In this document: positions 2,999 through 60,378 of the stretch, in pieces
Position numbering within the stretch: the first letter of the stretch is position 1
How the letters are laid out: every line of letters begins with the position of its first letter
From: Patescibacteria group bacterium
GTDB lineage: Bacteria > Patescibacteriota > JABMPQ01
Direction of reading: 5' to 3'
Assembly (NCBI GenBank): GCA_018818965.1
Contig: JAHJQX010000029.1
Coordinates: 2,982 to 66,981 of the forward strand
DNA: 64,000 bases
Position numbers and translations under genes: made by a program
The notes under the pieces: model-generated
The model's database searches: none
Seen by the model: only the letters and a program-made list of their open reading frames with translations
What the model was told of the DNA's origin: nothing

Positions 2999-3016
2999 GA
3001 ATATTGGGATCGTCGA

Positions 3017-3511
3017 CTATTTATCTTTAGAGGGCTGAGTATTCTCGGCTGCAGTTGGCTGTTCTGTTTTTTTAACGATTACTTTCCCGCCGGCCTTTTC
3101 AATCGCCTTTTTTGCTCCCGCTGAACAAGCATCAATAATAATTTCAAACTTTTTAGTAATTTGGCCGTTACCTAGTAATTTGGCTGGGCTTTTGACAGAC
3201 TTAATTAGCCCGGCGACAGCTAATTTTTTCTTATCAACTTTACCAGCTTTAGTGAACTTACTTTCTAACTTACCGACATTAACAATCTCCCAAGTAGGCT
3301 TGAGACTGCGGAAACCTCGCTTCTTCGGTATTAATTTGACTAAAGGAGTACGACCCCCCTCAAAGCCAGGGTAGAAGCTGGCGCCGCTACGAGATTTCTG
3401 CCCCTTCATTCCCCGGGTAGCGTAAGTACCACCCTGCGCCGCATTGCCCCGACCAACTCTTTTTCTCTTTTTCTTCGCTCCCACAGCTGGTTTTAATTCG
3501 TGTATTTTCAT
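3017..3511 (-). CDS. rplO: 50S ribosomal protein L15 (C-terminally extended)
   Basis: KRVGRGNAAQGGTYATRGMKGQKSR Gly/Arg-rich L15 N-terminus. Confidence 0.85.
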   Translation of the reverse strand: MKIHELKPAVGAKKKRKRVGRGNAAQGGTYATRGMKGQKSRSGASFYPGFEGGRTPLVKLIPKKRGFRSLKPTWEIVNVGKLESKFTKAGKVDKKKLAVAGLIKSVKSPAKLLGNGQITKKFEIIIDACSAGAKKAIEKAGGKVIVKKTEQPTAAENTQPSKDK

Positions 3512-6808: not shown

Positions 6809-7123
6809 TTAATCGACTGCTTCTTGACATTTGCGGCAAATTCTTTGCTTGGTCTTGTTGTCTTTGCCTAATTTACGACCGATCCGGGCTGGCTGATTAC
6901 ACTTGGGACAAACTAAAATTACGTTAGAGACTGATACGGGGGCAAAAAACTCTATTTTCTGTCCTTTCTCTCCTTCACGTTTTGGCTTAACGTGACGATA
7001 CGTCTTATTTACACCCTCTACTATTACCTTATTGTTAGATAATAAAACCTGAGTAATTTTTCCTTTTTTACCCCGATCCTTGCCTGATATTACTAATACG
7101 TTATCACCTTTTTTAACTTTCAT
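6809..7123 (-). CDS. rplX: 50S ribosomal protein L24 with C-terminal CxxC...CxxC zinc ribbon
   Basis: MKVKKGDNVLVISGKDRGKKG KOW motif. C-terminal CPKCNQ...CRKCQ. Confidence 0.85.
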   Translation of the reverse strand: MKVKKGDNVLVISGKDRGKKGKITQVLLSNNKVIVEGVNKTYRHVKPKREGEKGQKIEFFAPVSVSNVILVCPKCNQPARIGRKLGKDNKTKQRICRKCQEAVD

Positions 7124-13205: not shown

Positions 13206-14402
13206 CTATTTGGATATCTTAGTCACCACACCAGCACCTACCGTTCGACTACCTTCACGAATGGCGAACTTCATACCGTCTTCCATAGCAACCGGAGCAC
13301 CAAGCTTGATGTTAACTTTTACTGTATCGCCAGGCATCACCATTTCCGTTCCTTTGGGCAAACTTACTACTTCACCCGTCACATCCGTTGTCCGAATGTA
13401 GAATTGAGGCTTGTAGCCAGCAGCAAACGCTGTGTGACGGCCACCTTCTTCTTTGGTCAGTACATACACCTCCGCTTCAAATTCAGTGTGCGGAGTAATA
13501 CTACCCGGCTTGGCTAATACTTGACCTCGCTCGACTTCTTCTTTCTTGGTACCACGCAAAAGAAGACCAGCATTGTCACCCGCCCGACCTTCATCTAATT
13601 GTTTGTTAAACATTTCAATACCAGTAATAACTGTCTTGGCCGTATCGTGAATACCAACGATCTCTAGCTCTTCATTGAGCTTGACCATACCGCGCTCGAT
13701 TCGGCCAGTCACGACTGTACCCCGACCCTCAATCGAGAAAATATCTTCAATCGGCATTAAAAATGGTTTGTCAACATCACGTTTTGGTTCCGGGATGAAT
13801 GTGTCCAAAGCTTCTAACAACTCCAAAATTGGCTTACCAGCGTCACCTTTAGGATCTTCAAGGGCTTTCAAAGCAGAACCTTTGATAATCGGGGTCTTAT
13901 CTCCGGGGAATTCGTACTTAGTCAATTCCTCCCGAACTTCTTCCTCTACTAACTCGATCATCTCTTTGTCATCAACTTGATCAACTTTGTTTAAGAACAC
14001 AACAATTGAAGGTACCCCAACCTGTCGAGCTAACAAGATATGTTCCTTGGTCTGGGGCATCGGACCATCGGTGGCGGAGACAACCAAAATAGCACCGTCC
14101 ATCTGGGCAGCACCCGTAATCATGTTTTTGATATAGTCGGCATGTCCGGGACAGTCAACATGAGCATAATGTCGCTTCTCTGTTTCATACTCACAATGGG
14201 AAGTAGCAATGGTGATACCACGCTCCTTTTCCTCAGGGGCGTTATCAATCTGATCAACTGTCTTTATATTAGCTTTACCTTTGCCACTGGCATTGATAAC
14301 TTGCAAGATAGCAGCTGTCAGAGTGGTCTTACCGTGGTCGACGTGACCAATAGTACCAACGTTCACGTGAGGTTTACCTCGATCAAATTTTTCTTCGGCC
14401 AT
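13206..14402 (-). CDS. tuf: elongation factor Tu
   Basis: 398 aa, [18 protein letters not shown]. Confidence 0.95.
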
Positions 14403-25883: not shown

Positions 25884-26156
25884 ATGACTGAGCAAAAAAA
25901 GAAAACGCTGACCAATTTCAAAAAAGCCCAGGGTCACATAGCTAAGATCTTGGAGATGCTCGAAGATGATGAGTATTGCATTGATATCATGCAGCAAAAC
26001 TTGGCGGCCATTGGCCTATTAAAATCAGCTCACCAAATGCTGATGGAAAATCATCTCAACACCTGTTTTAAAAAAGCGATGGGTACCAAAGACGGCGCCA
26101 AAAAAAGAGCGATGACTAAAGAAATATTACAGGTAACTAGATTATTCAACAAATAA
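25884..26156 (+). CDS. csoR: CsoR/RcnR family metal-sensing repressor
   Basis: 90 aa, DUF156 fold, YCIDIMQQ...H...C metal ligands. Confidence 0.75.
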   Translation: MTEQKKKTLTNFKKAQGHIAKILEMLEDDEYCIDIMQQNLAAIGLLKSAHQMLMENHLNTCFKKAMGTKDGAKKRAMTKEILQVTRLFNK

Positions 26157-26164
26157 AAAAATAG

Positions 26165-26689
26165 ATGAAAAAAACTTTTCCCATAATACTTTCGCTAGCA
26201 CTGCTAGCCACCACTGCCCTACTGGCTGGCTGTAGCAAAAACACGACGGAAAATACAAAAGGTCAACTCACAGAAGTGAATCAAAGCACTAAGGCAGCCA
26301 GTTTTTCTGGTACAGAGGGTGAGGCGGTAACAATAGAAGATAGTCAAATCGCAATAGATACCACCAAGCTACAAGGCACCACAGCTAATTACTACAACAC
26401 TGAACTATCCGATGGACGGACTGTCTACTTTTTTGTGGTCAAAGATAAAAATGGCACCTATCGGGCGGCGGCCAACGCTTGTCAAGTTTGCGCTGATTCT
26501 AAAGCAGGATTTCATCAAGAAGGTGACCAAATGGTCTGCAATACTTGCGGCAATGGTTATCCGTTAGAAAAAATCGCTACCGAAAAAGGTGGCTGTAATC
26601 CTGTCCCAATTAACCCCAATCTCAAAGTAGCTGATAGCAAAATAATTATTGAGCAATCAGACATCGAGCAAATAGCAGACTTTTTCTAA
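26165..26689 (+). CDS. lipoprotein with CxxC-x18-CxxC metal-binding module
   Basis: Lipobox LLAGC. CQVCADS...CNTCGNG. Confidence 0.6.
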   Translation: MKKTFPIILSLALLATTALLAGCSKNTTENTKGQLTEVNQSTKAASFSGTEGEAVTIEDSQIAIDTTKLQGTTANYYNTELSDGRTVYFFVVKDKNGTYRAAANACQVCADSKAGFHQEGDQMVCNTCGNGYPLEKIATEKGGCNPVPINPNLKVADSKIIIEQSDIEQIADFF

Positions 26690-26706
26690 AATTATCACTA
26701 TAAAAA

Positions 26707-28203
26707 ATGCTTAAAAAAATAAAATTTCAAATAGACGGCCTGCATTGTCAAAGCTGTAAAACCATTATTGAAACTGAAGTGGACGTCTTGCCCGGAGTAA
26801 AAGATATTAAAGTTGATTATCCCTCGGGAAAATGTCAGCTAGAATACGACGAGGAAAAGATATCTCAAGCGAAGATGTTTACAGCTATTGAGAAGTTAGG
26901 CTATAAAATCAAGCAAAAGGCTGCCACCAAAAATGATAGCTCCAAAAACAAATATAAAAATTATATCATCGCTGGCGTCTTGGTAGCACTTTTTGCCATT
27001 GGCTATCTAATTATTAAAGAGTTGGGGCTACTAGAAATATTGTCACGATTAAATGAAGAGCGACTCGGTTACGGATTAATCTTTTTGATTGGCCTCCTGG
27101 CGAGTTTTCACTGTGTTGGCATGTGCGGCGGACTCATAGTCACTTACTCCGCTAAACAGCAACCCAAGCCAGACAAGAAATTCAGCTTTTCCGGAGCCCA
27201 CCTGCAATACAATCTTGGCCGCCTTATTTCCTACACTACTATCGGTGCTATTTTAGGTGGCTTCGGATCTTTTTTTGCTATCAATCCCACCTTCACTGGC
27301 ACTATCACTTTAGTAGCCGGAGTCTTTATGGTGCTAATGGGGTTGTCTCTAACCACTAAGCACAAGTGGCTAGAAAAGATAAAGCTGCGCACCCCGACTT
27401 TTATCGCCCGCTTTTTATTCAACCAACGTCATAGTAAAAAACCTAAAGGGCCTTTCGTGATTGGTCTCCTCAATGGCTTCATGCCCTGTGGACCGCTGCA
27501 AGCGATGCAACTTTATGCTTTGGCCTCCGGCAGCATTGTCAGTGGGGCGCTCTCGATGGGCTTTTATGCCCTGGGCACTATCCCTCTCCTCTTTGGCTTC
27601 GGTAGTTTTATTTCTCTCATCAGTCAGGAACACGTCAAGAAAGTAATGAAGTTTTCTGGCATTATCGTAATCGCTCTAGGCATTATAATGTTTAATCGCG
27701 GACTAACTAACTTTGGCTACGGCTTTAGCGGTCTAATCCCCAGCAAGCAGCTTGGTGAAAAAGAATATCTGGTCAGCGGCGACGTCAAAGAATACCAGGC
27801 AGCTAATATGGAATTATCATACAGCGGTTATTCTCCTAATGTTCTCTATGTAAAAAAAGGTATTCCTGTCCGCTGGGTGATAAATGTAAAGCAAATGTCA
27901 GGCTGTACAGACGAAATCATTATGCCGGAGTATAATATAGATAAGAAACTACGAAAAGGAGAAAACGTGATTGAATTCACACCGCTTGAAGCCGGCGAGA
28001 TAAAATTTTCCTGCTGGATGCAAATGGTCTGGGGTAAGTTCATTGTCGTAGATGAAGAAGAAGAGCTGCCAGCGGCTAATGATTTGTCAGTCGAAGAAGT
28101 CAGTGATCAGCCTAGTAGCTCTTGTAGCGGTGACGGCGAGTGTGGTGGTAGCTGTGGTTCAACTTCTTGTGGCTGTGATGGTAGTCGAATTAGTACAGAA
28201 TAA
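26707..28203 (+). CDS. HMA-domain / polytopic permease (HCxGMCGG motif) / cupredoxin-like beta-domain fusion with Cys/Gly-rich C-terminal tail
   Basis: N-terminal GLHCQSC HMA. TM core FHCVGMCGG and CGPLQ. C-terminal SCSGDGECGGSCGSTSCGCDGS. Confidence 0.6.
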   Translation: MLKKIKFQIDGLHCQSCKTIIETEVDVLPGVKDIKVDYPSGKCQLEYDEEKISQAKMFTAIEKLGYKIKQKAATKNDSSKNKYKNYIIAGVLVALFAIGYLIIKELGLLEILSRLNEERLGYGLIFLIGLLASFHCVGMCGGLIVTYSAKQQPKPDKKFSFSGAHLQYNLGRLISYTTIGAILGGFGSFFAINPTFTGTITLVAGVFMVLMGLSLTTKHKWLEKIKLRTPTFIARFLFNQRHSKKPKGPFVIGLLNGFMPCGPLQAMQLYALASGSIVSGALSMGFYALGTIPLLFGFGSFISLISQEHVKKVMKFSGIIVIALGIIMFNRGLTNFGYGFSGLIPSKQLGEKEYLVSGDVKEYQAANMELSYSGYSPNVLYVKKGIPVRWVINVKQMSGCTDEIIMPEYNIDKKLRKGENVIEFTPLEAGEIKFSCWMQMVWGKFIVVDEEEELPAANDLSVEEVSDQPSSSCSGDGECGGSCGSTSCGCDGSRISTE

Positions 28204-28215
28204 TAAATATATTTT

Positions 28216-30408
28216 ATGAATAACAAAAAAGATAGTTACAAAATATCAGGCATGCACTGCACCGCTTGCTCTCTGACTATTGAAAAGACTTTGCAGAAGG
28301 AGCCAGGCATCAAAAAAGCTAACGTTAACTTTGCCACCGAAGAAGCCAATATTGAATACGAAGCTGATCAGATTGATGACAAAAAAATCGTCAGCCTAAT
28401 CAAAAAAGCCGGCTATGAAGCTATTAATCAGAAAGACAGTGCTAGCGGCGACAGCAAAGCCAAAGAGATAAAAAAGACACGTAATCTCTTTATTGTCAGT
28501 CTGCTTTTATCTTTGCCGGTTTTTGTACTAGCGATGATTTTAATGGAAAAGTCGCTGGCTGGCCGAGTGATCCAGATGATTCTAGCTGGCATTGTTCAAT
28601 TTTATATCGGCAGCCGTTTTTATAAGGGGGCTTACAATGCTCTGCGGAATAAGACAGCCAATATGGACACGCTGGTGGCTCTCGGCACCTCAGCCGCCTA
28701 TTTTTACAGTTTAGCCACTACTTTTTTGATTGCTGGCGAAGTATTTTACGAAACATCAGCTCTACTCATTACCTTTATTATGCTGGGTAAATGGCTAGAA
28801 GCCCGCGCTAAAGGCAAGACAGGCGAAGCTATCAAGAAACTACTAGGGCTGCAAGCGAAGACAGCTCGCGTAGCCAGAGACGGGGAAGAAAAAGATATTC
28901 CGATTACTGAAGTGATAGTCGGCGACATTGTTATTGTGCGCCCGGGTGAAAAAATCCCGGTCGACGGCAAAATTATCAACGGCGACTCCAGCGTAGATGA
29001 GTCAATGATCACCGGCGAGAGTATGCCAGTAGGTAAAAAAACTGGCGATTCAGTTATTGGCGCAACTTTGAACAAAAATGGTAGCTTCAAATTTACCGCC
29101 GAGAAAATCGGTCAAAATACCGTGCTGGCTCAGATTATTAAGATCGTCCACGAAGCTCAGTCTTCTAAAGCTCCAATTCAGAAATTTGCTGATAAAGTAT
29201 CTAGTTATTTTGTACCGACAGTGATGGGAATAGCTGTTATTACTTTCGGCTACTGGTATTTTATTGGGTCGTCTTCTTTCGTCACTGCCCTAATGACTTT
29301 TACAGCGGTGCTTGTGATCGCCTGCCCCTGCGCGCTTGGCCTAGCTACTCCAACAGCTATCATCGTCGGTACCGGTAAAGGTGCAGCCAATGGTATCTTG
29401 ATAAAAAGTGGTGAGGCACTAGAGATTGCTAACAAGATTCAGACGGTGGTACTAGATAAAACTGGTACTTTGACTAAAGGAGAGCCGGAGGTGACAGACA
29501 TTGTACAAATTACAAATAACAAATACCAAAATACAAACAAATTACAAATAACAGAAGAATTAAGAATTCTAAAGTTGGCGGCGTCAGTCGAAAGTAAGTC
29601 TGAACATCCATTGGCCGAGGCAATTATGCGAAAAGCTAAGGCTGACAAAATGAAACTAGCTGAAGTACAAGATTTTGCCGCAGTGACTGGTCACGGGGTG
29701 AAAGGGACAATTAACGATAAGCAAGTTTTAATAGGCACAGATAAATTGATGAGCAAGTTTGATATTAATGTTGCAGATGATCTAGTGACTCAGAAAAATA
29801 AATTAGAGAGTGAAGGGAAAACGGTAATGATTGTAGCGGTGGACAGTGATGTTGCCGGCCTAATCGCCGTAGCTGATACAATCAAAGACACATCGCGCGA
29901 AGCGATAGCTGCGCTACGCGAGATAGGTATTAAGACAATAATGATCACTGGAGATAACCAGCGGACGGCGGCGGCGATCGCTGAACAGGTTGGAATCGAC
30001 GAGGTGCGAGCGCAAGTTTTACCACAAGATAAAGCGGCGGCCGTGAAGTCACTACAAGGAGAGGGTGAGAAAGTAGCGATGGTCGGTGATGGTATTAATG
30101 ATGCTCCAGCGCTGGCTCAGTCGGATCTGGGTATCGCCATGGGAGCCGGTACAGATGTAGCCATTGAGACGGGAGAGATCGTATTAATAAAAGATGATCT
30201 ACGCGATGTGGCCCGAGCAATCAAGCTCAGCCAGCAGACCATGAATAAAATTAAGCAAAATATGTTCTGGGCGCTATTTTATAATAGCGTTGGTATTCCA
30301 ATCGCAGCGCTCGGGCTTCTACGCGCTGAATTTGCTGGACTAGCGATGGCGATGAGTAGCGTGTCGGTTGTATTAAATTCGTTATTACTGAAGAAAAAGA
30401 AACTCTAA
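28216..30408 (+). CDS. copA: copper-translocating P1B-type ATPase
   Basis: HMA GMHCTAC, CPC motif, [15 protein letters not shown]. Confidence 0.9.
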
Positions 30409-33989: not shown

Positions 33990-34226
33990 CTATTTAATGT
34001 CTAAAAGCTTAGCCAATTTTTCTTTGTCAAAACCAACGACTACTTCATCATCAACCGTAATAACCGGCACACCCATCTGATTTGATTTCTCGGTCATTTC
34101 AGCACGAGCCTTTTCGTCAGCCGCTACGTCCTTTTCAATAAATTCTATTTTATTATCACTTAGATAGTCTTTAGCCATTGTACAATAAGGGCAAGTTGGG
34201 GTTGAATATACGGTCACTTTTTTCAT
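33990..34226 (-). CDS. glutaredoxin-like protein
   Basis: 78 aa, CPYC active site. Confidence 0.8.
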   Translation of the reverse strand: MKKVTVYSTPTCPYCTMAKDYLSDNKIEFIEKDVAADEKARAEMTEKSNQMGVPVITVDDEVVVGFDKEKLAKLLDIK

Positions 34227-34276
34227 AATTTTTATTATTAATTTTTTATATTAAAAAGATTATATTCAATTTAGAC

Positions 34277-34345
34277 GAGTAGTATGCCCGAGTACAAACC
34301 CAGGCATACTACTCTATAGCGAAAACGCTAATGGCAGACTGCCAT
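34277..34345 (-). promoter_or_regulatory. three contiguous hairpins downstream of the micropeptide ORF: 5-bp ATGGC/GCCAT, 5-bp TAGCG/CGCTA, and a 12-bp stem GAGTAGTATGCC/GGCATACTACTC
   Basis: Exact reverse-complement arms read from sequence. Not followed by a U-run. Confidence 0.5.
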
Positions 34346-34347
34346 GT

Positions 34348-34422
34348 TTAACCACAACATGAACCGCCGCCTAGGCCACAGCACGAACCACCACCATATG
34401 AACAACATGAACCTCCGATCAT
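34348..34422 (-). CDS. unannotated 24-aa Cys-rich micropeptide MIGGSCCSYGGGSCCGLGGGSCCG (three GGSCCG repeats), metallothionein-like or RiPP-precursor-like
   Basis: ATG 8 nt after a canonical SD (GGGAGGTGA), rare in this genome. 23 nt downstream of the ArsR gene stop on the same strand. Below the 60-aa ORF-track threshold. Confidence 0.4.
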   Translation of the reverse strand: MIGGSCCSYGGGSCCGLGGGSCCG

Positions 34423-34445
34423 ATATATCACCTCCCTTCAAATTT

Positions 34446-34775
34446 TTAATTATTTTTATGAACTTCACGTAATACTTTCATTAGACACTTCACTAATGGA
34501 TTGTCTTTTTTAATTTTGCAGCACATCATTTGTCCGCATCTCAGTTTGCGCAGTAGACCAGCCATTTCTAGAATACGCATTTGCTGAGAGACAGCGGAGA
34601 CTGTTACTTCAAATACGCGAGCGATATCGGTAGTACACAGCCCTTCGTGCTTAGCAAGTAATTTAAACATCTGGTATCGGCTAGGATCACTTAAGGCGGC
34701 AAAGACGGCTATGATTTTCTCTTCATGTTCGGTCAGCTCTTTTTTTAATTTCCCTATCTTTGACTTACAAAGCAT
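34446..34775 (-). CDS. ArsR/SmtB family metalloregulator with C-terminal Cys cluster
   Basis: wHTH SDPSRYQMFKLL...DIARVFEVTVSAVSQQMRILEMAGLL. C-terminal RCGQMMCC...C. Confidence 0.75.
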   Translation of the reverse strand: MLCKSKIGKLKKELTEHEEKIIAVFAALSDPSRYQMFKLLAKHEGLCTTDIARVFEVTVSAVSQQMRILEMAGLLRKLRCGQMMCCKIKKDNPLVKCLMKVLREVHKNN

Positions 34776-34887
34776 ATATGTAAGGTAGATTTATAGTTTA
34801 AGCTATTGCTTAACTACTTAAAGTATAATCCCCTGGCAAATGATTGTCAAGAGATTTAGGGAAATAGAAAACGGTGTTTTATTACTA

Positions 34888-39835: not shown

Positions 39836-39883
39836 TTTTACACTATTTAAGACAAACAGGTCGGACTAATTACCAGGGGTTCT

Positions 39884-39930
39884 CACCCTACGGGTGACCA
39901 CCCGTTAGGGTGGAAATCCTTCTGGACGCA
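39884..39930 (+). repeat. palindromic element CACCCTACGGGTG-AC-CACCCGTTAGGGTG followed by a 17-nt exact duplicate of the tRNA-Lys 3' end (AAATCCTTCTGGACGCA)
   Basis: Read directly. Near-identical element at 60282-60327 downstream of tRNA-Arg(GCG). Confidence 0.75.
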
Positions 39931-44911: not shown

Positions 44912-45222
44912 GTACTCTATCAGCCAAGCACCAGGCATTTGTTAATAAATTACTGCCAAATGTCGACAGCAGGAGACGCTGACAGGCGTAGAGTAGCCAT
45001 CTAGCTACTTACCAGACGATACTACTCTCAAACCTTTGGAACACTTAGAGGTGTTCCTTACTTTCACGTTTGTCTGACCCTTTTCCTTCTGACAAGCCTA
45101 ATCAGGAACAATGAAAGAACAGGGCTCGGTGTACCAAAGGGTTCTAATACGTTCCTCTAGGGCCCGCCAAGGATTGGAGAAGATTAGAACTTTTTCAGTG
45201 TAATTATACTATATGAGATTAA

Positions 45223-46098
45223 CTATTTTATAACACCCTCTAAACCTTCTACCCATCCCAGGCTTCCACAGTTTTTAGTGATAATTATTTTCTCACTAAA
45301 TTTTTTAGCTTCGCTTGCTTTTATCCCCCTTTTAAAGTTTTCTACAATAACATCAGGGTCAATCTCAGGATTTTTTACAAGTATAAATTTATTACAAACC
45401 TTACTTAACTCAAGATCAGCCAAAGAGTCACCAATGGCCACTGTTTCATCATAAGAACAATTTAATTTTTTTTGTATTATTTTGGCCGCCGAGTATTTAT
45501 TTGCACCTTTAATAACTAAATGGTAAGCATGATCCCTCGTCCCATCGGAATTTGGAATCTCAATAAAACCGTTGTCTATAATCTCCAAATAAGGAAAATT
45601 ATTAGACAAAGATTTATTAAACGATTTAAGGTCTATCTTTCCCCTCAAAAGAACCGTACCCTTTTTACGCATTATATTATTCTTGGTACCTCCTGGTCGT
45701 CCGTCCTTAGGGGTAAAAATTGAAAGTTTTTCTTTTTTTGTTTTAGCTTTCTCTAACAGCAGATCTACGGCACCAATTTTATATATTGCATCGTGACTAT
45801 TTGTTCTGTGTAGATAATCAATAAAACTCTGGTTATTCTTATATTTACTTGGATCTCCAAGATTAGTAATTTCTTCTCCTTTATAGAAAATAATCGCTCC
45901 CAACTCAGCAATAAAGATAGGAGAAAAATTCTCGCTTTTAACAAATCTATTAGTCTCCTTAATAGATCTGCCAGAAACCAGAGAAATAATAACACCTCTT
46001 TTTTGGAGAATCTCTTTTAACTTTCTAGCTGGTGCTAAGACTTTACCTCCCTGATTCGCGTAAGCACCATCGTAATCAGTTAATATTAATTTAATCAC
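45223..46098 (-). CDS. HAD-IIB (Cof/sucrose-phosphatase-like) hydrolase
   Basis: LILTDYDGA motif I, GDSLADLEL motif IV. Confidence 0.7.
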   Translation of the reverse strand: MIKLILTDYDGAYANQGGKVLAPARKLKEILQKRGVIISLVSGRSIKETNRFVKSENFSPIFIAELGAIIFYKGEEITNLGDPSKYKNNQSFIDYLHRTNSHDAIYKIGAVDLLLEKAKTKKEKLSIFTPKDGRPGGTKNNIMRKKGTVLLRGKIDLKSFNKSLSNNFPYLEIIDNGFIEIPNSDGTRDHAYHLVIKGANKYSAAKIIQKKLNCSYDETVAIGDSLADLELSKVCNKFILVKNPEIDPDVIVENFKRGIKASEAKKFSEKIIITKNCGSLGWVEGLEGVIK

Positions 46099-60281: not shown

Positions 60282-60327
60282 GAGAAATCCTACCCTAGCG
60301 GGTGGTCACCCGTAGGGTGAAAACCTA
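60282..60327 (-). repeat. second copy of the tRNA-downstream palindromic element (CACCCTACGGGTG-AC-CACCCGCTAGGGTA in tRNA orientation)
   Basis: About 55 nt 3' of tRNA-Arg(GCG). Near-identical to 39884-39912 including flanks (GGTTYTCACCC...AGGGTRG.AWWTC). Confidence 0.75.
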
Positions 60328-60378
60328 TATAATCAGCTCCCCGCAAGTAGACCAGACTTTGTTCGCAAAACTTTAATA

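What the first reader, a model, noticed from the sequence alone, without database searches (positions are those of the whole stretch)
34277..34775. ArsR/SmtB metalloregulator directly upstream of an unannotated 24-aa (GGSCCG)x3 micropeptide with the only strong SD in the window, followed by three stacked hairpins and a glutaredoxin gene
Reverse-strand reading of 34422-34348 gives MIGGSCCSYGGGSCCGLGGGSCCG*. It is preceded by GGGAGGTGA, although almost no other gene here has a Shine-Dalgarno. The ORF begins 23 nt after the ArsR-family gene stop on the same strand. Three contiguous perfect hairpins follow (5 bp, 5 bp and 12 bp stems), then a glutaredoxin gene. Six cysteines as three CC pairs in 24 residues is metallothionein-like. 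SmtB-type repressors classically control metallothionein genes. Alternatives are a RiPP or bacteriocin precursor without a nearby maturase, or a Cys-dependent leader peptide. No immediate U-run follows the hairpins, which argues against a classical attenuator. A minimal metallothionein of this repeat type under an ArsR regulator would be novel for CPR-like bacteria.
Basis: partly seen in the sequence, partly recalled or inferred. Interest (0 to 1): 0.8.

Follow-up and report, generated by a model that had tools for sequence, protein, structure and literature searches.

The report
Conserved unannotated Gly/Cys micropeptide gene
A never-annotated gene for a 15-26-residue glycine/cysteine-rich peptide sits between an ArsR-type repressor gene and a glutaredoxin gene in one clade of Patescibacteria, is conserved as a coding sequence with a near-perfect ribosome-binding site, and most likely makes a metallothionein-like thiol "sponge" switched on by stress.

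Summary
On the minus strand, 34422..34348 encodes MIGGSCCSYGGGSCCGLGGGSCCG*. It starts 23 nt after an ArsR/SmtB gene and 8 nt after GGGAGGTGA, in a window where about 2 of 73 other ORFs have an SD of 5 nt or more. Three hairpins (6, 5 and 17 bp) and a YruB-type glutaredoxin gene follow.

It is a real gene. Eight distinct versions (15-26 aa, 4-8 Cys, core GG(G)CCG) occupy the same position in related metagenomic contigs. Each has the same SD. Indels are in frame, and 65 differing codons are synonymous against 20 non-synonymous. None is in a 15-billion-protein collection, Pfam or NCBIfam.

More distant Patescibacteria have ArsR directly followed by Grx, behind the same promoter-overlapping palindrome. 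The peptide and hairpin are therefore a clade-specific insertion into an ArsR-Grx operon. Two lineages also carry superoxide dismutase before the peptide; a third contig has ArsR-SOD but ends before that position.

The main hairpin lacks a U tract and forms whether or not the ORF is ribosome-covered. This argues against a leader-peptide attenuator. No RiPP maturase lies in the flanks read.

Best reading: an ArsR-repressed, bulk-expressed thiolate-rich peptide, metallothionein-like. Whether it takes up soft metals or oxidants, and whether it partners Grx, is unresolved. It is a new variant of a known kind.

The parts
34822..34850 (-). Sigma-70-type promoter: TTGACA, 17 nt, TATACT
   Evidence: 11 of 12 matches. 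Conserved at the same position upstream of arsR in L122, L123, L125 and L126.
34797..34822 (.). Palindromic operator TTTAAGTAGTT-AAGC-AATAGCTTAAA, abutting the -10 (a perfect 11-4-11 repeat in L125)
   Evidence: Single site in the 64-kb window. An exact motif match lies upstream of arsR in 10 related loci, including the peptide-less L139 and L140.
34446..34775 (-). ArsR/SmtB-family repressor, 109 aa. C47 and C85 are invariant. C97 is found only in the nine sequences closest to the window's ArsR; six of them plus the window are shown to sit in peptide-bearing loci.
34428..34436 (-). Extended Shine-Dalgarno GGGAGGTGA, 8 nt before the ATG
   Evidence: The same GGAGGTGAT-like element is present in all 8 relatives.
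34348..34422 (-). Micropeptide gene encoding MIGGSCCSYGGGSCCGLGGGSCCG* (24 aa, 6 Cys, 10 Gly)
   Evidence: Absent from protein collections and family libraries.
34331..34345 (-). Hairpin H1 (6 bp). Conserved in L121 only.
34317..34330 (-). Hairpin H2 AGCGUUUUCGCU (5 bp). Identical in L121 and L126, absent in the others.
34277..34314 (-). Main hairpin H3: 17-bp stem, UUGU loop, no U tract. Proposed 3' stabiliser or leaky terminator of the arsR-peptide segment.
   Evidence: A hairpin is present in all 8 relatives, with compensatory changes. It is unaffected by blocking the ORF.
33990..34226 (-). YruB-family glutaredoxin-like protein (78 aa, CPYC). It is the constant partner of this ArsR across Patescibacteria.

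Best explanation
The locus is an autoregulated stress operon: promoter, palindromic operator, arsR, micropeptide, hairpin, grx.

The ArsR-family dimer is proposed to sit on the 26-bp palindrome that abuts the -10. It would leave the DNA when its conserved thiols (C47 and C85, plus C97 in this clade) are occupied by a soft metal or are oxidised.

The transcript then yields the repressor and large amounts of a 24-residue Gly/Cys peptide. High output would come from a 9-nt near-perfect Shine-Dalgarno, in a genome that otherwise hardly uses one. It would also come from a very stable, U-tract-less hairpin just 3' of the ORF. That hairpin is proposed to protect the upstream RNA and let only part of transcription run on into grx.

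The peptide is the functional product. It is a thiolate-dense, flexible, metallothionein/phytochelatin-like sponge that sequesters thiophilic metal ions and/or absorbs oxidants and electrophiles. The adjacent glutaredoxin is available to re-reduce it.

Shown: the gene is real, conserved and under purifying selection. The SD, hairpin, operator and synteny are conserved. The peptide-plus-hairpin module is an insertion into an older ArsR-Grx operon.

Inferred: repression at the operator, the nature of the inducer, the hairpin's role, and the peptide's chemistry.
For: 1. Coding and conserved. Eight distinct peptides sit in the same slot in relatives whose ArsR is only 50-59% identical. Length changes are always in frame. 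Pairwise codon differences are 31 synonymous against 10 non-synonymous in subtype A, and 34 against 10 in subtype B. Nucleotide differences at codon position 3 are 36 of 55 and 39 of 57. Ser switches between TCA and AGC, and Leu between CTA and TTA. The other reading frames carry stops in relatives.

2. Expression signals. A GGAGGTGAT-like SD lies 6-8 nt before the ATG in all eight, against about 2 of 73 other ORFs in the window.

3. Hairpin. A strong hairpin lies 10-33 nt after the stop in all eight. It differs in sequence but is maintained by compensatory changes. It is the strongest hairpin in the window.

4. Regulator. It matches HTH_5 and NCBIfam HTH_metalloreg above cut-off. The closest solved relatives are CadC (Lmo1102), CzrA and SmtB. 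The AF2 model has pLDDT 89.8 and its best fold match is CadC. The operator palindrome is unique in the window and conserved upstream of arsR in 10 loci.

5. Composition. The peptides are 15-36% Cys and 19-45% Gly, with CC and CxC motifs. They are similar in size and Cys count to the 26-aa, 7-Cys fungal Cu-thioneins (PMC4755600).

6. Stress context. Grx always follows. Fe/Mn superoxide dismutase sits between arsR and the peptide in L125 and L128; L141 also has ArsR-SOD but ends before the peptide position.

7. The extra Cys97 in ArsR occurs only in the nine sequences closest to the window's ArsR; seven of these (the window plus six) are shown to sit in peptide-bearing loci.
Against: - There is no direct evidence of transcription, translation, metal binding or redox activity.
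- None of the 12 or more loci has a metal exporter or importer in the operon, which is unusual for a metal-sensing ArsR/SmtB.
- The repressor lacks the canonical alpha3 C-x-C (it has C-T-T-D) and the alpha5 His/Asp ligands.
- Copper already has its own CsoR/P1B-ATPase operon at 25884-30408.
- The shortest version (15 aa, 4 Cys) could bind at most one or two ions alone.
- The peptides match no metallothionein family in Pfam or NCBIfam.
- The link between Cys97 and the peptide could be shared ancestry rather than co-adaptation.
- The family was found in only one subclade. The exhaustive searches were technically limited.
Confidence: 0.45

Rival explanations
1. Dedicated redox partner of the glutaredoxin. 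In these glutathione-less bacteria the Gly/Cys peptide would be a ribosomally made low-molecular-weight thiol. It could act as a redox buffer, as a substrate cycled by the YruB-type Grx, or as a co-ligand of a Grx-bridged Fe-S cluster. On this reading it is not a metal sponge.
For: The peptide gene always lies immediately upstream of grx, even where SOD separates it from arsR. The ancestral regulon of this ArsR is Grx alone. SOD, and AhpC in L137/L138, lie in or near the operon. The invariant ArsR cysteines C47 and C85 fall on a short strand and a wing strand in the model; they may be neighbours in a sheet, as in a dithiol switch, but no contact was measured. High expression signals suit a stoichiometric buffer.
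Against: Absence of glutathione synthesis in this genome was not tested. Vicinal Cys-Cys disulfides are strained and are not typical buffers. No thioredoxin or glutathione reductase is in the operon. No experiment is available.
Confidence: 0.2
2. Cis-acting leader peptide. Ribosome pausing at the Cys (and Gly) codons would sense charged tRNA supply and control grx through the downstream hairpin, like the polycysteine sORF attenuators of mycobacteria.
For: A short Cys-codon-rich ORF lies followed by a stable RNA structure upstream of a thiol-related gene. Polycysteine sORFs do act this way in mycobacteria (bioRxiv 10.1101/834739). In L129 the Grx start becomes more accessible when the ORF is blocked (0.12 to 0.52).
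Against: The main hairpin has no U tract in 7 of 8 loci, while canonical U-tract terminators exist elsewhere in the window. The hairpin forms identically with the ORF free or blocked. The Grx start stays largely unpaired in both states in 7 of 8 loci. Gly, Ser and Leu residues are conserved through synonymous codon switches, not only Cys. The downstream genes are not cysteine-metabolism genes. The ORF sits after a regulator gene, not at the 5' end, and has a maximal SD rather than being leaderless.
Confidence: 0.08
3. Precursor of a ribosomally synthesised, post-translationally modified peptide, for example an azole-containing microcin-B17-like product or a thioamidated or copper-chelating product. 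The maturase would be encoded elsewhere.
For: Gly/Ser/Cys-rich cores are typical of linear azole peptides (own knowledge). Subtype B peptides have a polar N-terminal stretch that could be a short leader.
Against: Subtype A peptides have essentially no leader (MI-GGSCC...). No YcaO, radical-SAM, LanM-type or MNIO genes appear in the flanks of any of the loci read, nor among the window genes scanned. The upstream neighbours differ between relatives (MetH, MazG, small hypotheticals). Patescibacterial genomes are small.
Confidence: 0.05
4. The ORF is incidental. The G/U-rich stretch plus hairpin would be an RNA element or a remnant of an inserted repeat, and the peptide, if made, would have no function.
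For: The module is an insertion restricted to one subclade. Very short ORFs are easily over-interpreted.
Against: There is third-position-biased divergence, in-frame indels of up to 8 codons, codon-family switches for Ser and Leu, and a conserved SD at fixed spacing in eight lineages. There is no Rfam match of any weight. The ORF region has no conserved base-pairing.
Confidence: 0.05

Closest known systems
SmtB-SmtA (cyanobacterial ArsR/SmtB repressor controlling a metallothionein gene); also AzuR-NmtA in Anabaena (PMC8790569)
   Same: An ArsR/SmtB-family repressor gene lies next to a small Cys-rich protein gene. A palindromic operator sits at the promoter. SmtB is among the closest solved relatives of the repressor.
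   Different: SmtA-type MTs are about 55 aa with His ligands and a zinc-finger-like fold (Pfam PF02069); these peptides are 15-26 aa, have no His and give no family match. The genes here are co-directional in one operon rather than divergent. The repressor lacks the alpha3N and alpha5 ligand sets. The constant operon partner is a glutaredoxin.
Fungal family-8 Cu-thioneins (Neurospora crassa and Agaricus bisporus MT, 26 aa, 7 Cys; PMC4755600)
   Same: Similar size, Gly/Ser/Cys-dominated composition, Cys density and lack of secondary-structure-forming residues.
   Different: The fungal proteins use C-x-C spacing rather than vicinal CC pairs. They are eukaryotic, with different regulation. No homology is detectable. 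Metal binding by the bacterial peptides is untested.
Polycysteine leaderless sORF attenuators of mycobacteria (bioRxiv 10.1101/834739)
   Same: An unannotated short ORF with clustered Cys codons lies upstream of another gene, with RNA structure between them.
   Different: Those sORFs are leaderless and sit at the 5' end of cysteine-metabolism operons. They act by unmasking a sequestered ribosome-binding site. Here there is a maximal SD, no sequestered Grx start, no ORF-dependent structural switch and amino-acid-level conservation beyond Cys.
ArsD metallochaperone, MerT and MerA vicinal cysteine pairs (own knowledge)
   Same: Vicinal Cys-Cys pairs serve as soft-metal or metalloid (As(III), Hg(II)) ligands in operons controlled by ArsR-type repressors.
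   Different: Those are parts of folded proteins of more than 100 aa, alongside pumps or reductases. None of those genes is present here.

Membership tests
ArsR/SmtB repressors (the regulator gene) | Winged-helix HTH_5 domain; score above the curated family cut-off | tested here: met
   Pfam PF01022 at 39.2 bits against 22. NCBIfam NF033788 at 65.9 bits against 55.
ArsR/SmtB repressors (the regulator gene) | ArsR/SmtB fold (helices, HTH, beta-wing, C-terminal dimerisation helix) | tested here: met
   AF2 model with pLDDT 89.8. Best PDB matches are CadC 3f72/1u2w, ArsR 6j05, CzrA and SmtB, with TM about 0.7-0.8.
ArsR/SmtB repressors (the regulator gene) | Canonical metal sites: alpha3 C-x-C (with N-terminal Cys), or alpha5 Asp/His/His/Glu | tested here: not met
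   The alpha3 position reads L-C-T-T-D, so only the first Cys is present. The alpha5 His ligands are absent. The invariant Cys are C47 and C85 instead.
ArsR/SmtB repressors (the regulator gene) | Imperfect palindromic operator overlapping its own promoter | tested here: met
   An 11-4-11 palindrome abuts the -10. It is unique in the window and conserved in 10 related loci. Binding itself was not tested.
Metallothionein (operational definition) | Low molecular weight, high Cys content, CC / CxC / CxxC motifs | tested here: met
   15-26 aa, 15-36% Cys, 1-3 CC pairs plus CGC motifs.
Metallothionein (operational definition) | Stoichiometric metal-thiolate cluster formation | not testable with these tools
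   Requires the synthetic peptide and metal titration.
Metallothionein sequence families (SmtA/BmtA and others) | Match to a curated MT family model | tested here: not met
   No Pfam or NCBIfam hit at E <= 10 for seven peptides.
Leader-peptide attenuator (polycysteine sORF type) | Clustered regulatory codons in a short ORF upstream of the controlled gene | tested here: met
   4-8 Cys codons in 15-26 codons, upstream of grx.
Leader-peptide attenuator (polycysteine sORF type) | RNA structure whose formation depends on ribosome position and that masks the 3' gene's start or forms a terminator | tested here: not met
   The hairpin is unchanged, and the Grx start equally open, with the ORF free or blocked in 7 of 8 loci. 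There is no U tract in 7 of 8.
Leader-peptide attenuator (polycysteine sORF type) | Controlled genes belong to the metabolism of the sensed amino acid | tested here: not met
   The downstream genes are Grx, Ham1/RdgB, a pseudouridine synthase and NUDIX.
Intrinsic (Rho-independent) terminator | GC-rich stem immediately followed by a U tract | tested here: not met
   The stem is present but no U tract follows, except in L128. Canonical examples exist elsewhere in the window (39315, 46513, 53944, 62752).
RiPP precursor (linear azole peptide / microcin B17-like) | Leader peptide plus a nearby maturase (YcaO cyclodehydratase and others) | tested here: not met
   Subtype A has no leader. No maturase lies in the flanks of the loci read or among the window genes scanned. 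The rest of the genome was not available.

The most novel reading that the evidence does not exclude
A genetically encoded substitute for glutathione or phytochelatin. In a clade of Patescibacteria that cannot make small-molecule thiols, a ribosomally made Gly/Cys micropeptide would be the cell's bulk thiol. It would be induced by a dithiol-switch ArsR, recycled by the neighbouring YruB glutaredoxin, and possibly serve as co-ligand for a Grx-bound Fe-S cluster.
Probability: 0.15. Interest if true: 0.85.

Novelty: new variant of a known kind. Interest (0 to 1): 0.62.

Why it matters
Patescibacteria/CPR have minimal genomes, and little is known about how they handle metal and oxidative stress.

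A conserved, strongly expressed 15-26-residue Cys/Gly peptide has never been called as a gene: it is absent from a 15-billion-protein collection. It would be one of the shortest metallothionein-like products known, and the first in this radiation.

The locus also shows how a new micro-gene, with its own ribosome-binding site and RNA hairpin, can be inserted into an older two-gene ArsR-Grx operon.

The widely conserved ArsR-Grx pair and its operator are themselves an undescribed small regulon of Patescibacteria.

The peptides can be made by chemical synthesis, so the chemistry is directly testable.

Tried and rejected
1. Peptide as query. The search for homologous proteins refuses queries shorter than 40 aa. 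The longest stop-to-stop reading is 29 aa, below the 30-aa minimum of the representative search.

2. Degenerate DNA pattern for three G-x-C-C units in genome contigs. All were off-frame readings of tandem repeats in unrelated genomes.

3. The ArsR protein alone found only itself in the word-indexed search, and the exact look-up failed. The profile search later worked.

4. The metagenome-contig scan with the ArsR alignment gave a single locus, L128.

5. Exact look-up of ten peptide variants: none is in the collection.

6. Rfam. Only sub-threshold chance hits fall on the hairpin, for example 29 bits against a gathering score of 175. The whole window gives tRNAs only.

7. Pfam and NCBIfam on seven peptides gave nothing.

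8. L141 (ArsR P0128) ends inside the SOD gene, so the peptide position is missing.

9. The repeat finder inverted-repeat scan was unsuitable for hairpins. It was replaced by a sliding RNAfold scan.

10. Literature searches for this peptide, or for an ArsR-Grx operon in Patescibacteria, found nothing relevant.

11. An internal promoter for grx in the AT-rich spacer was considered. No consensus match was found on that strand, so this remains open.
Full report
**What is at the coordinates**

Read on the minus strand, the region contains the following, in order.
- The end of a 1144-aa MetH gene.
- A near-consensus promoter, TTGACA-17-TATACT, at 34850..34822.
- A palindrome, TTTAAGTAGTT-AAGC-AATAGCTTAAA, at 34822..34797.
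- A 109-aa ArsR/SmtB gene at 34775..34446. It scores Pfam HTH_5 6.5e-10 and NCBIfam HTH_metalloreg 65.9 bits against a cut-off of 55.
- 23 nt containing GGGAGGTGA.
- The ORF ATG 34422..TAA 34348, encoding MIGGSCCSYGGGSCCGLGGGSCCG.
- Three hairpins: 34345-34331, 34330-34317 and 34314-34277.
- An AT-rich spacer.
- A 78-aa CPYC glutaredoxin of the YruB family at 34226..33990 (TIGR02196, 99.5 bits against 88.55).
- Ham1/RdgB, a pseudouridine synthase and a NUDIX gene.

NCBI names the ArsR protein as coming from a "Patescibacteria group bacterium".

**Is the observation more than chance?**

The three-unit G-x-C-C pattern is unique in the window and absent from 100 shuffles. The segment from the SD to the Grx start folds with z = -6.4. 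In a sliding 44-nt fold of both strands of the whole window, the third hairpin (17 bp, -29.5 kcal/mol) is the most stable.

A crude survey of 73 ORFs of 90 aa or more found an SD core of 5 nt or more in front of only two others: GGAGGT at 6809-7123 and AGGAG at 13206-14402. The 8-mer GGAGGTGA occurs only twice in 64 kb. The SD is the strongest but not the only one. The stems are 6, 5 and 17 bp rather than 5, 5 and 12.

**Is the ORF a gene?**

The peptide is too short for the protein search tools. A degenerate-pattern scan of genomes returned only off-frame tandem repeats. I therefore used synteny. Close homologues of the glutaredoxin were traced to their contigs. An ArsR profile scan of metagenomes added one more locus.

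In every contig whose Grx is 75% or more identical, the order ArsR, gap, Grx, (DUF1176), Ham1, RluX, NUDIX recurs. The gap holds a small Cys-rich ORF:

| Locus | Peptide |
|---|---|
| window | MIGGSCCSYGGGSCCGLGGGSCCG |
| L126/127 | MIGGSCCSCGGGSCCGLGGGCCGS |
| L121/122 | MIGEGCCGLGGSCCG |
| L130-132 | MIGGGTCCGLGGGCCGCGCGCC |
| L129 | MEGNKSLGGGCRGLSGGGCCGCGTC |
| L123/124 | MAVYKKDPGTDEDKGGGGCCGCGVCS |
| L125 | MTDYKNLDPDPGGCCGCGTCS |
| L128 | MNYNFGPGGCCGCGVCS |

The ArsR proteins of these loci are only 50-59% identical to the window's, so these are well-separated lineages.

- All eight ORFs keep a GGAGGTGAT-like SD 6-8 nt before the ATG.
- Length differences are always multiples of three, including loss of a whole 8-codon unit in L121.
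- Between aligned codons, differences are 31 synonymous against 10 non-synonymous in the MIGG subtype, and 34 against 10 in the GGCCGCG subtype.
- 36 of 55 and 39 of 57 nucleotide differences fall at codon position 3.
- Ser is encoded by TCA in one lineage and AGC in another, and Leu by CTA or TTA.
- The other frames contain stops in relatives.

None of ten peptide variants is present in a 15-billion-protein collection. No gene was called at this position in any of the loci. No Pfam or NCBIfam model matches. The conserved feature is not the (GGSCCG)x3 repeat but a core G-G-(G)-C-C-G with one to three CC pairs. The peptides are 15-36% Cys and 19-45% Gly.

**The RNA downstream**

Each of the eight loci has a strong hairpin starting 10-33 nt after the stop codon. 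Within the MIGG subtype, 4 of 17 pairs show double compensatory changes. The other subtype has a different, 10-12-bp GC stem that folds in each sequence. H1 and H2 of the window are shared only with the closest relatives.

Only L128 has a U tract after the stem. The window's genome does use canonical U-tract terminators elsewhere (39315, 46513, 53944, 62752). Near-identical U-less hairpins also follow two tRNA genes (39877-39920 and 60285-60328).

I folded the whole SD-to-Grx segment with the ORF free and with the ORF plus 12 nt blocked. The hairpin was identical in both states in all eight loci. The accessibility of the Grx start was essentially unchanged in seven.

The structure is therefore not a ribosome-dependent switch. 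I interpret it as a 3' stabiliser or leaky terminator that raises the amount of the arsR-peptide segment. That role is inferred, not shown.

**The regulator and its operon**

A profile search found 147 ArsR relatives with E <= 1e-8; those that carry a source name are Patescibacteria lineages.

In three more distant lineages (42-50% identity), the ArsR gene is followed directly by the Grx gene, with a gap of 2-33 nt. These are P0130 (L135/136), P0143 (L138) and P0156 (L139/140). No Cys-rich small ORF lies within 2.5 kb.

The same operator motif lies upstream of arsR in ten loci, including the peptide-less L139 and L140. It is unique in the window. The older unit is therefore operator-arsR-grx, and the peptide plus hairpin is an insertion in one subclade.

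In L125 and L128 an Fe/Mn superoxide dismutase sits between arsR and the peptide. L141 also has ArsR followed by SOD, but the contig ends before the peptide position. The peptide stays directly upstream of grx wherever it is seen.

Across 22 ArsR sequences, the invariant cysteines are C47 and C85.
- C47 takes the position of the first Cys of the CadC/ArsR "CVC" motif, here C-T-T-D.
- C85 lies in a wing strand.
- In the AF2 model (pLDDT 89.8), C47 lies in a two-residue strand just before the HTH and C85 in strand 83-88. They may be neighbours in a small sheet, but no distance could be measured.
- C97 (PLVKC, last helix) occurs only in the nine sequences closest to the window's ArsR. Seven of these (the window plus six) are shown to sit in peptide-bearing loci; the other two could not be checked. 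The verified peptide-less lineages have Ser at this position.
- C3 and C80 are mostly present or absent together.

The closest solved relatives by sequence and fold are CadC (Lmo1102, 1u2w/3f72), CzrA, SmtB and ArsR. The canonical alpha3 and alpha5 ligand sets are not present.

**What it most likely does**

These features call for a product needed in quantity: strong translation signals, a stabilising hairpin, amino-acid-level conservation of a flexible Gly/Cys core, and placement inside a repressor-controlled stress operon. They do not suit a catalytic or purely regulatory role.

The best-supported reading is a thiolate-rich sponge, working like a metallothionein or phytochelatin. It would be released from ArsR repression when the repressor's thiols are metallated or oxidised.

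The size and composition resemble the 26-aa, 7-Cys fungal Cu-thioneins, which were the shortest MTs reported when the Binz-Kagi classification was proposed (PMC4755600). An ArsR/SmtB repressor next to a Cys-rich protein gene recalls SmtB-SmtA.

The context is at least as much redox as metal. There is no transporter in any operon. Grx is the constant partner. SOD is inserted in at least two lineages. A separate CsoR / HMA / P1B-ATPase copper operon lies at 25884-30408. I therefore keep "soft metal or oxidant" open, and list a dedicated Grx-partner role as the main rival.

**Rivals rejected or down-weighted**

- A Cys-sensing leader peptide of the mycobacterial type (10.1101/834739) fails three of its defining features here. 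There is no ORF-dependent structure. There is no masked start or U-tract terminator. The downstream genes are not cysteine-metabolism genes.
- A RiPP precursor is unlikely. The MIGG subtype has no leader, and no maturase gene appears in any flank read.
- A structured RNA is excluded by the codon-periodic divergence and the lack of any meaningful Rfam hit.

**Novelty and limits**

I found no description of this peptide, or of an ArsR-Grx operon in Patescibacteria, in the searchable literature.

It is not a member of any defined metallothionein family. It works, by inference, like one. I rate it a new variant of a known kind.

The main limits are these.
- No expression or biochemical data are available.
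- The Cys97-peptide association may simply reflect shared descent.

Noticed in passing
window 25884-30408 (+): A separate heavy-metal (probably copper) operon. It encodes a CsoR-family repressor (PF02583), an FtrD-like membrane protein, an HMA/DsbD_2/cupredoxin fusion protein of 498 aa, and a P1B-type ATPase with an HMA domain.
   Followed up: partly
L135, L136, L138, L139, L140 (and window 33990-34850): An ArsR gene directly followed by a YruB-type glutaredoxin gene appears in several distant Patescibacteria lineages. In L139/L140 it sits behind the same TTAAG-N3-TTAAGCAA-N3-CTTAA operator. This seems to be an undescribed small conserved regulon in its own right.
   Followed up: partly
window 39877-39920 (+) and 60285-60328 (-): Two near-identical strong hairpins (CACCCTACGGGTGAyCACCCGTwAGGGTG), without U tracts. 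One lies just 3' of tRNA-Lys and the other just 3' of tRNA-Arg. They may be a repeated 3'-end or terminator element of this genome.
   Followed up: no
window 44940-45220 (-): About 280 nt with no plausible ORF and marked predicted structure, downstream of the gene at 45223-46098. There is no Rfam match. It contains a hairpin (44988-45031) whose arm AGAGTAGTAT resembles the arm of the micropeptide hairpin. It may be an unclassified small RNA.
   Followed up: no
L121, L122, L129, L130, L131: In several relatives a 216-217-aa DUF1176 (PF06674) protein is inserted between Grx and Ham1. It is absent from the window.
   Followed up: no
window 6809-7123 (-) and 13206-14402 (-): These are the only other ORFs in the window with an SD core of 5 nt or more (GGAGGT and AGGAG). 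Both lie in the 205-22849 run of closely packed minus-strand ORFs, whose products were not identified here. This suggests the SD is kept for a few genes in an otherwise SD-poor genome.
   Followed up: no
L130-L132 Grx (about 3001-3234): The glutaredoxin of this lineage has CSYC instead of CPYC at the active site (output). L139 and L137 have CVYC. By own knowledge, loss of the Pro is associated with Fe-S cluster binding in some glutaredoxins.
   Followed up: no
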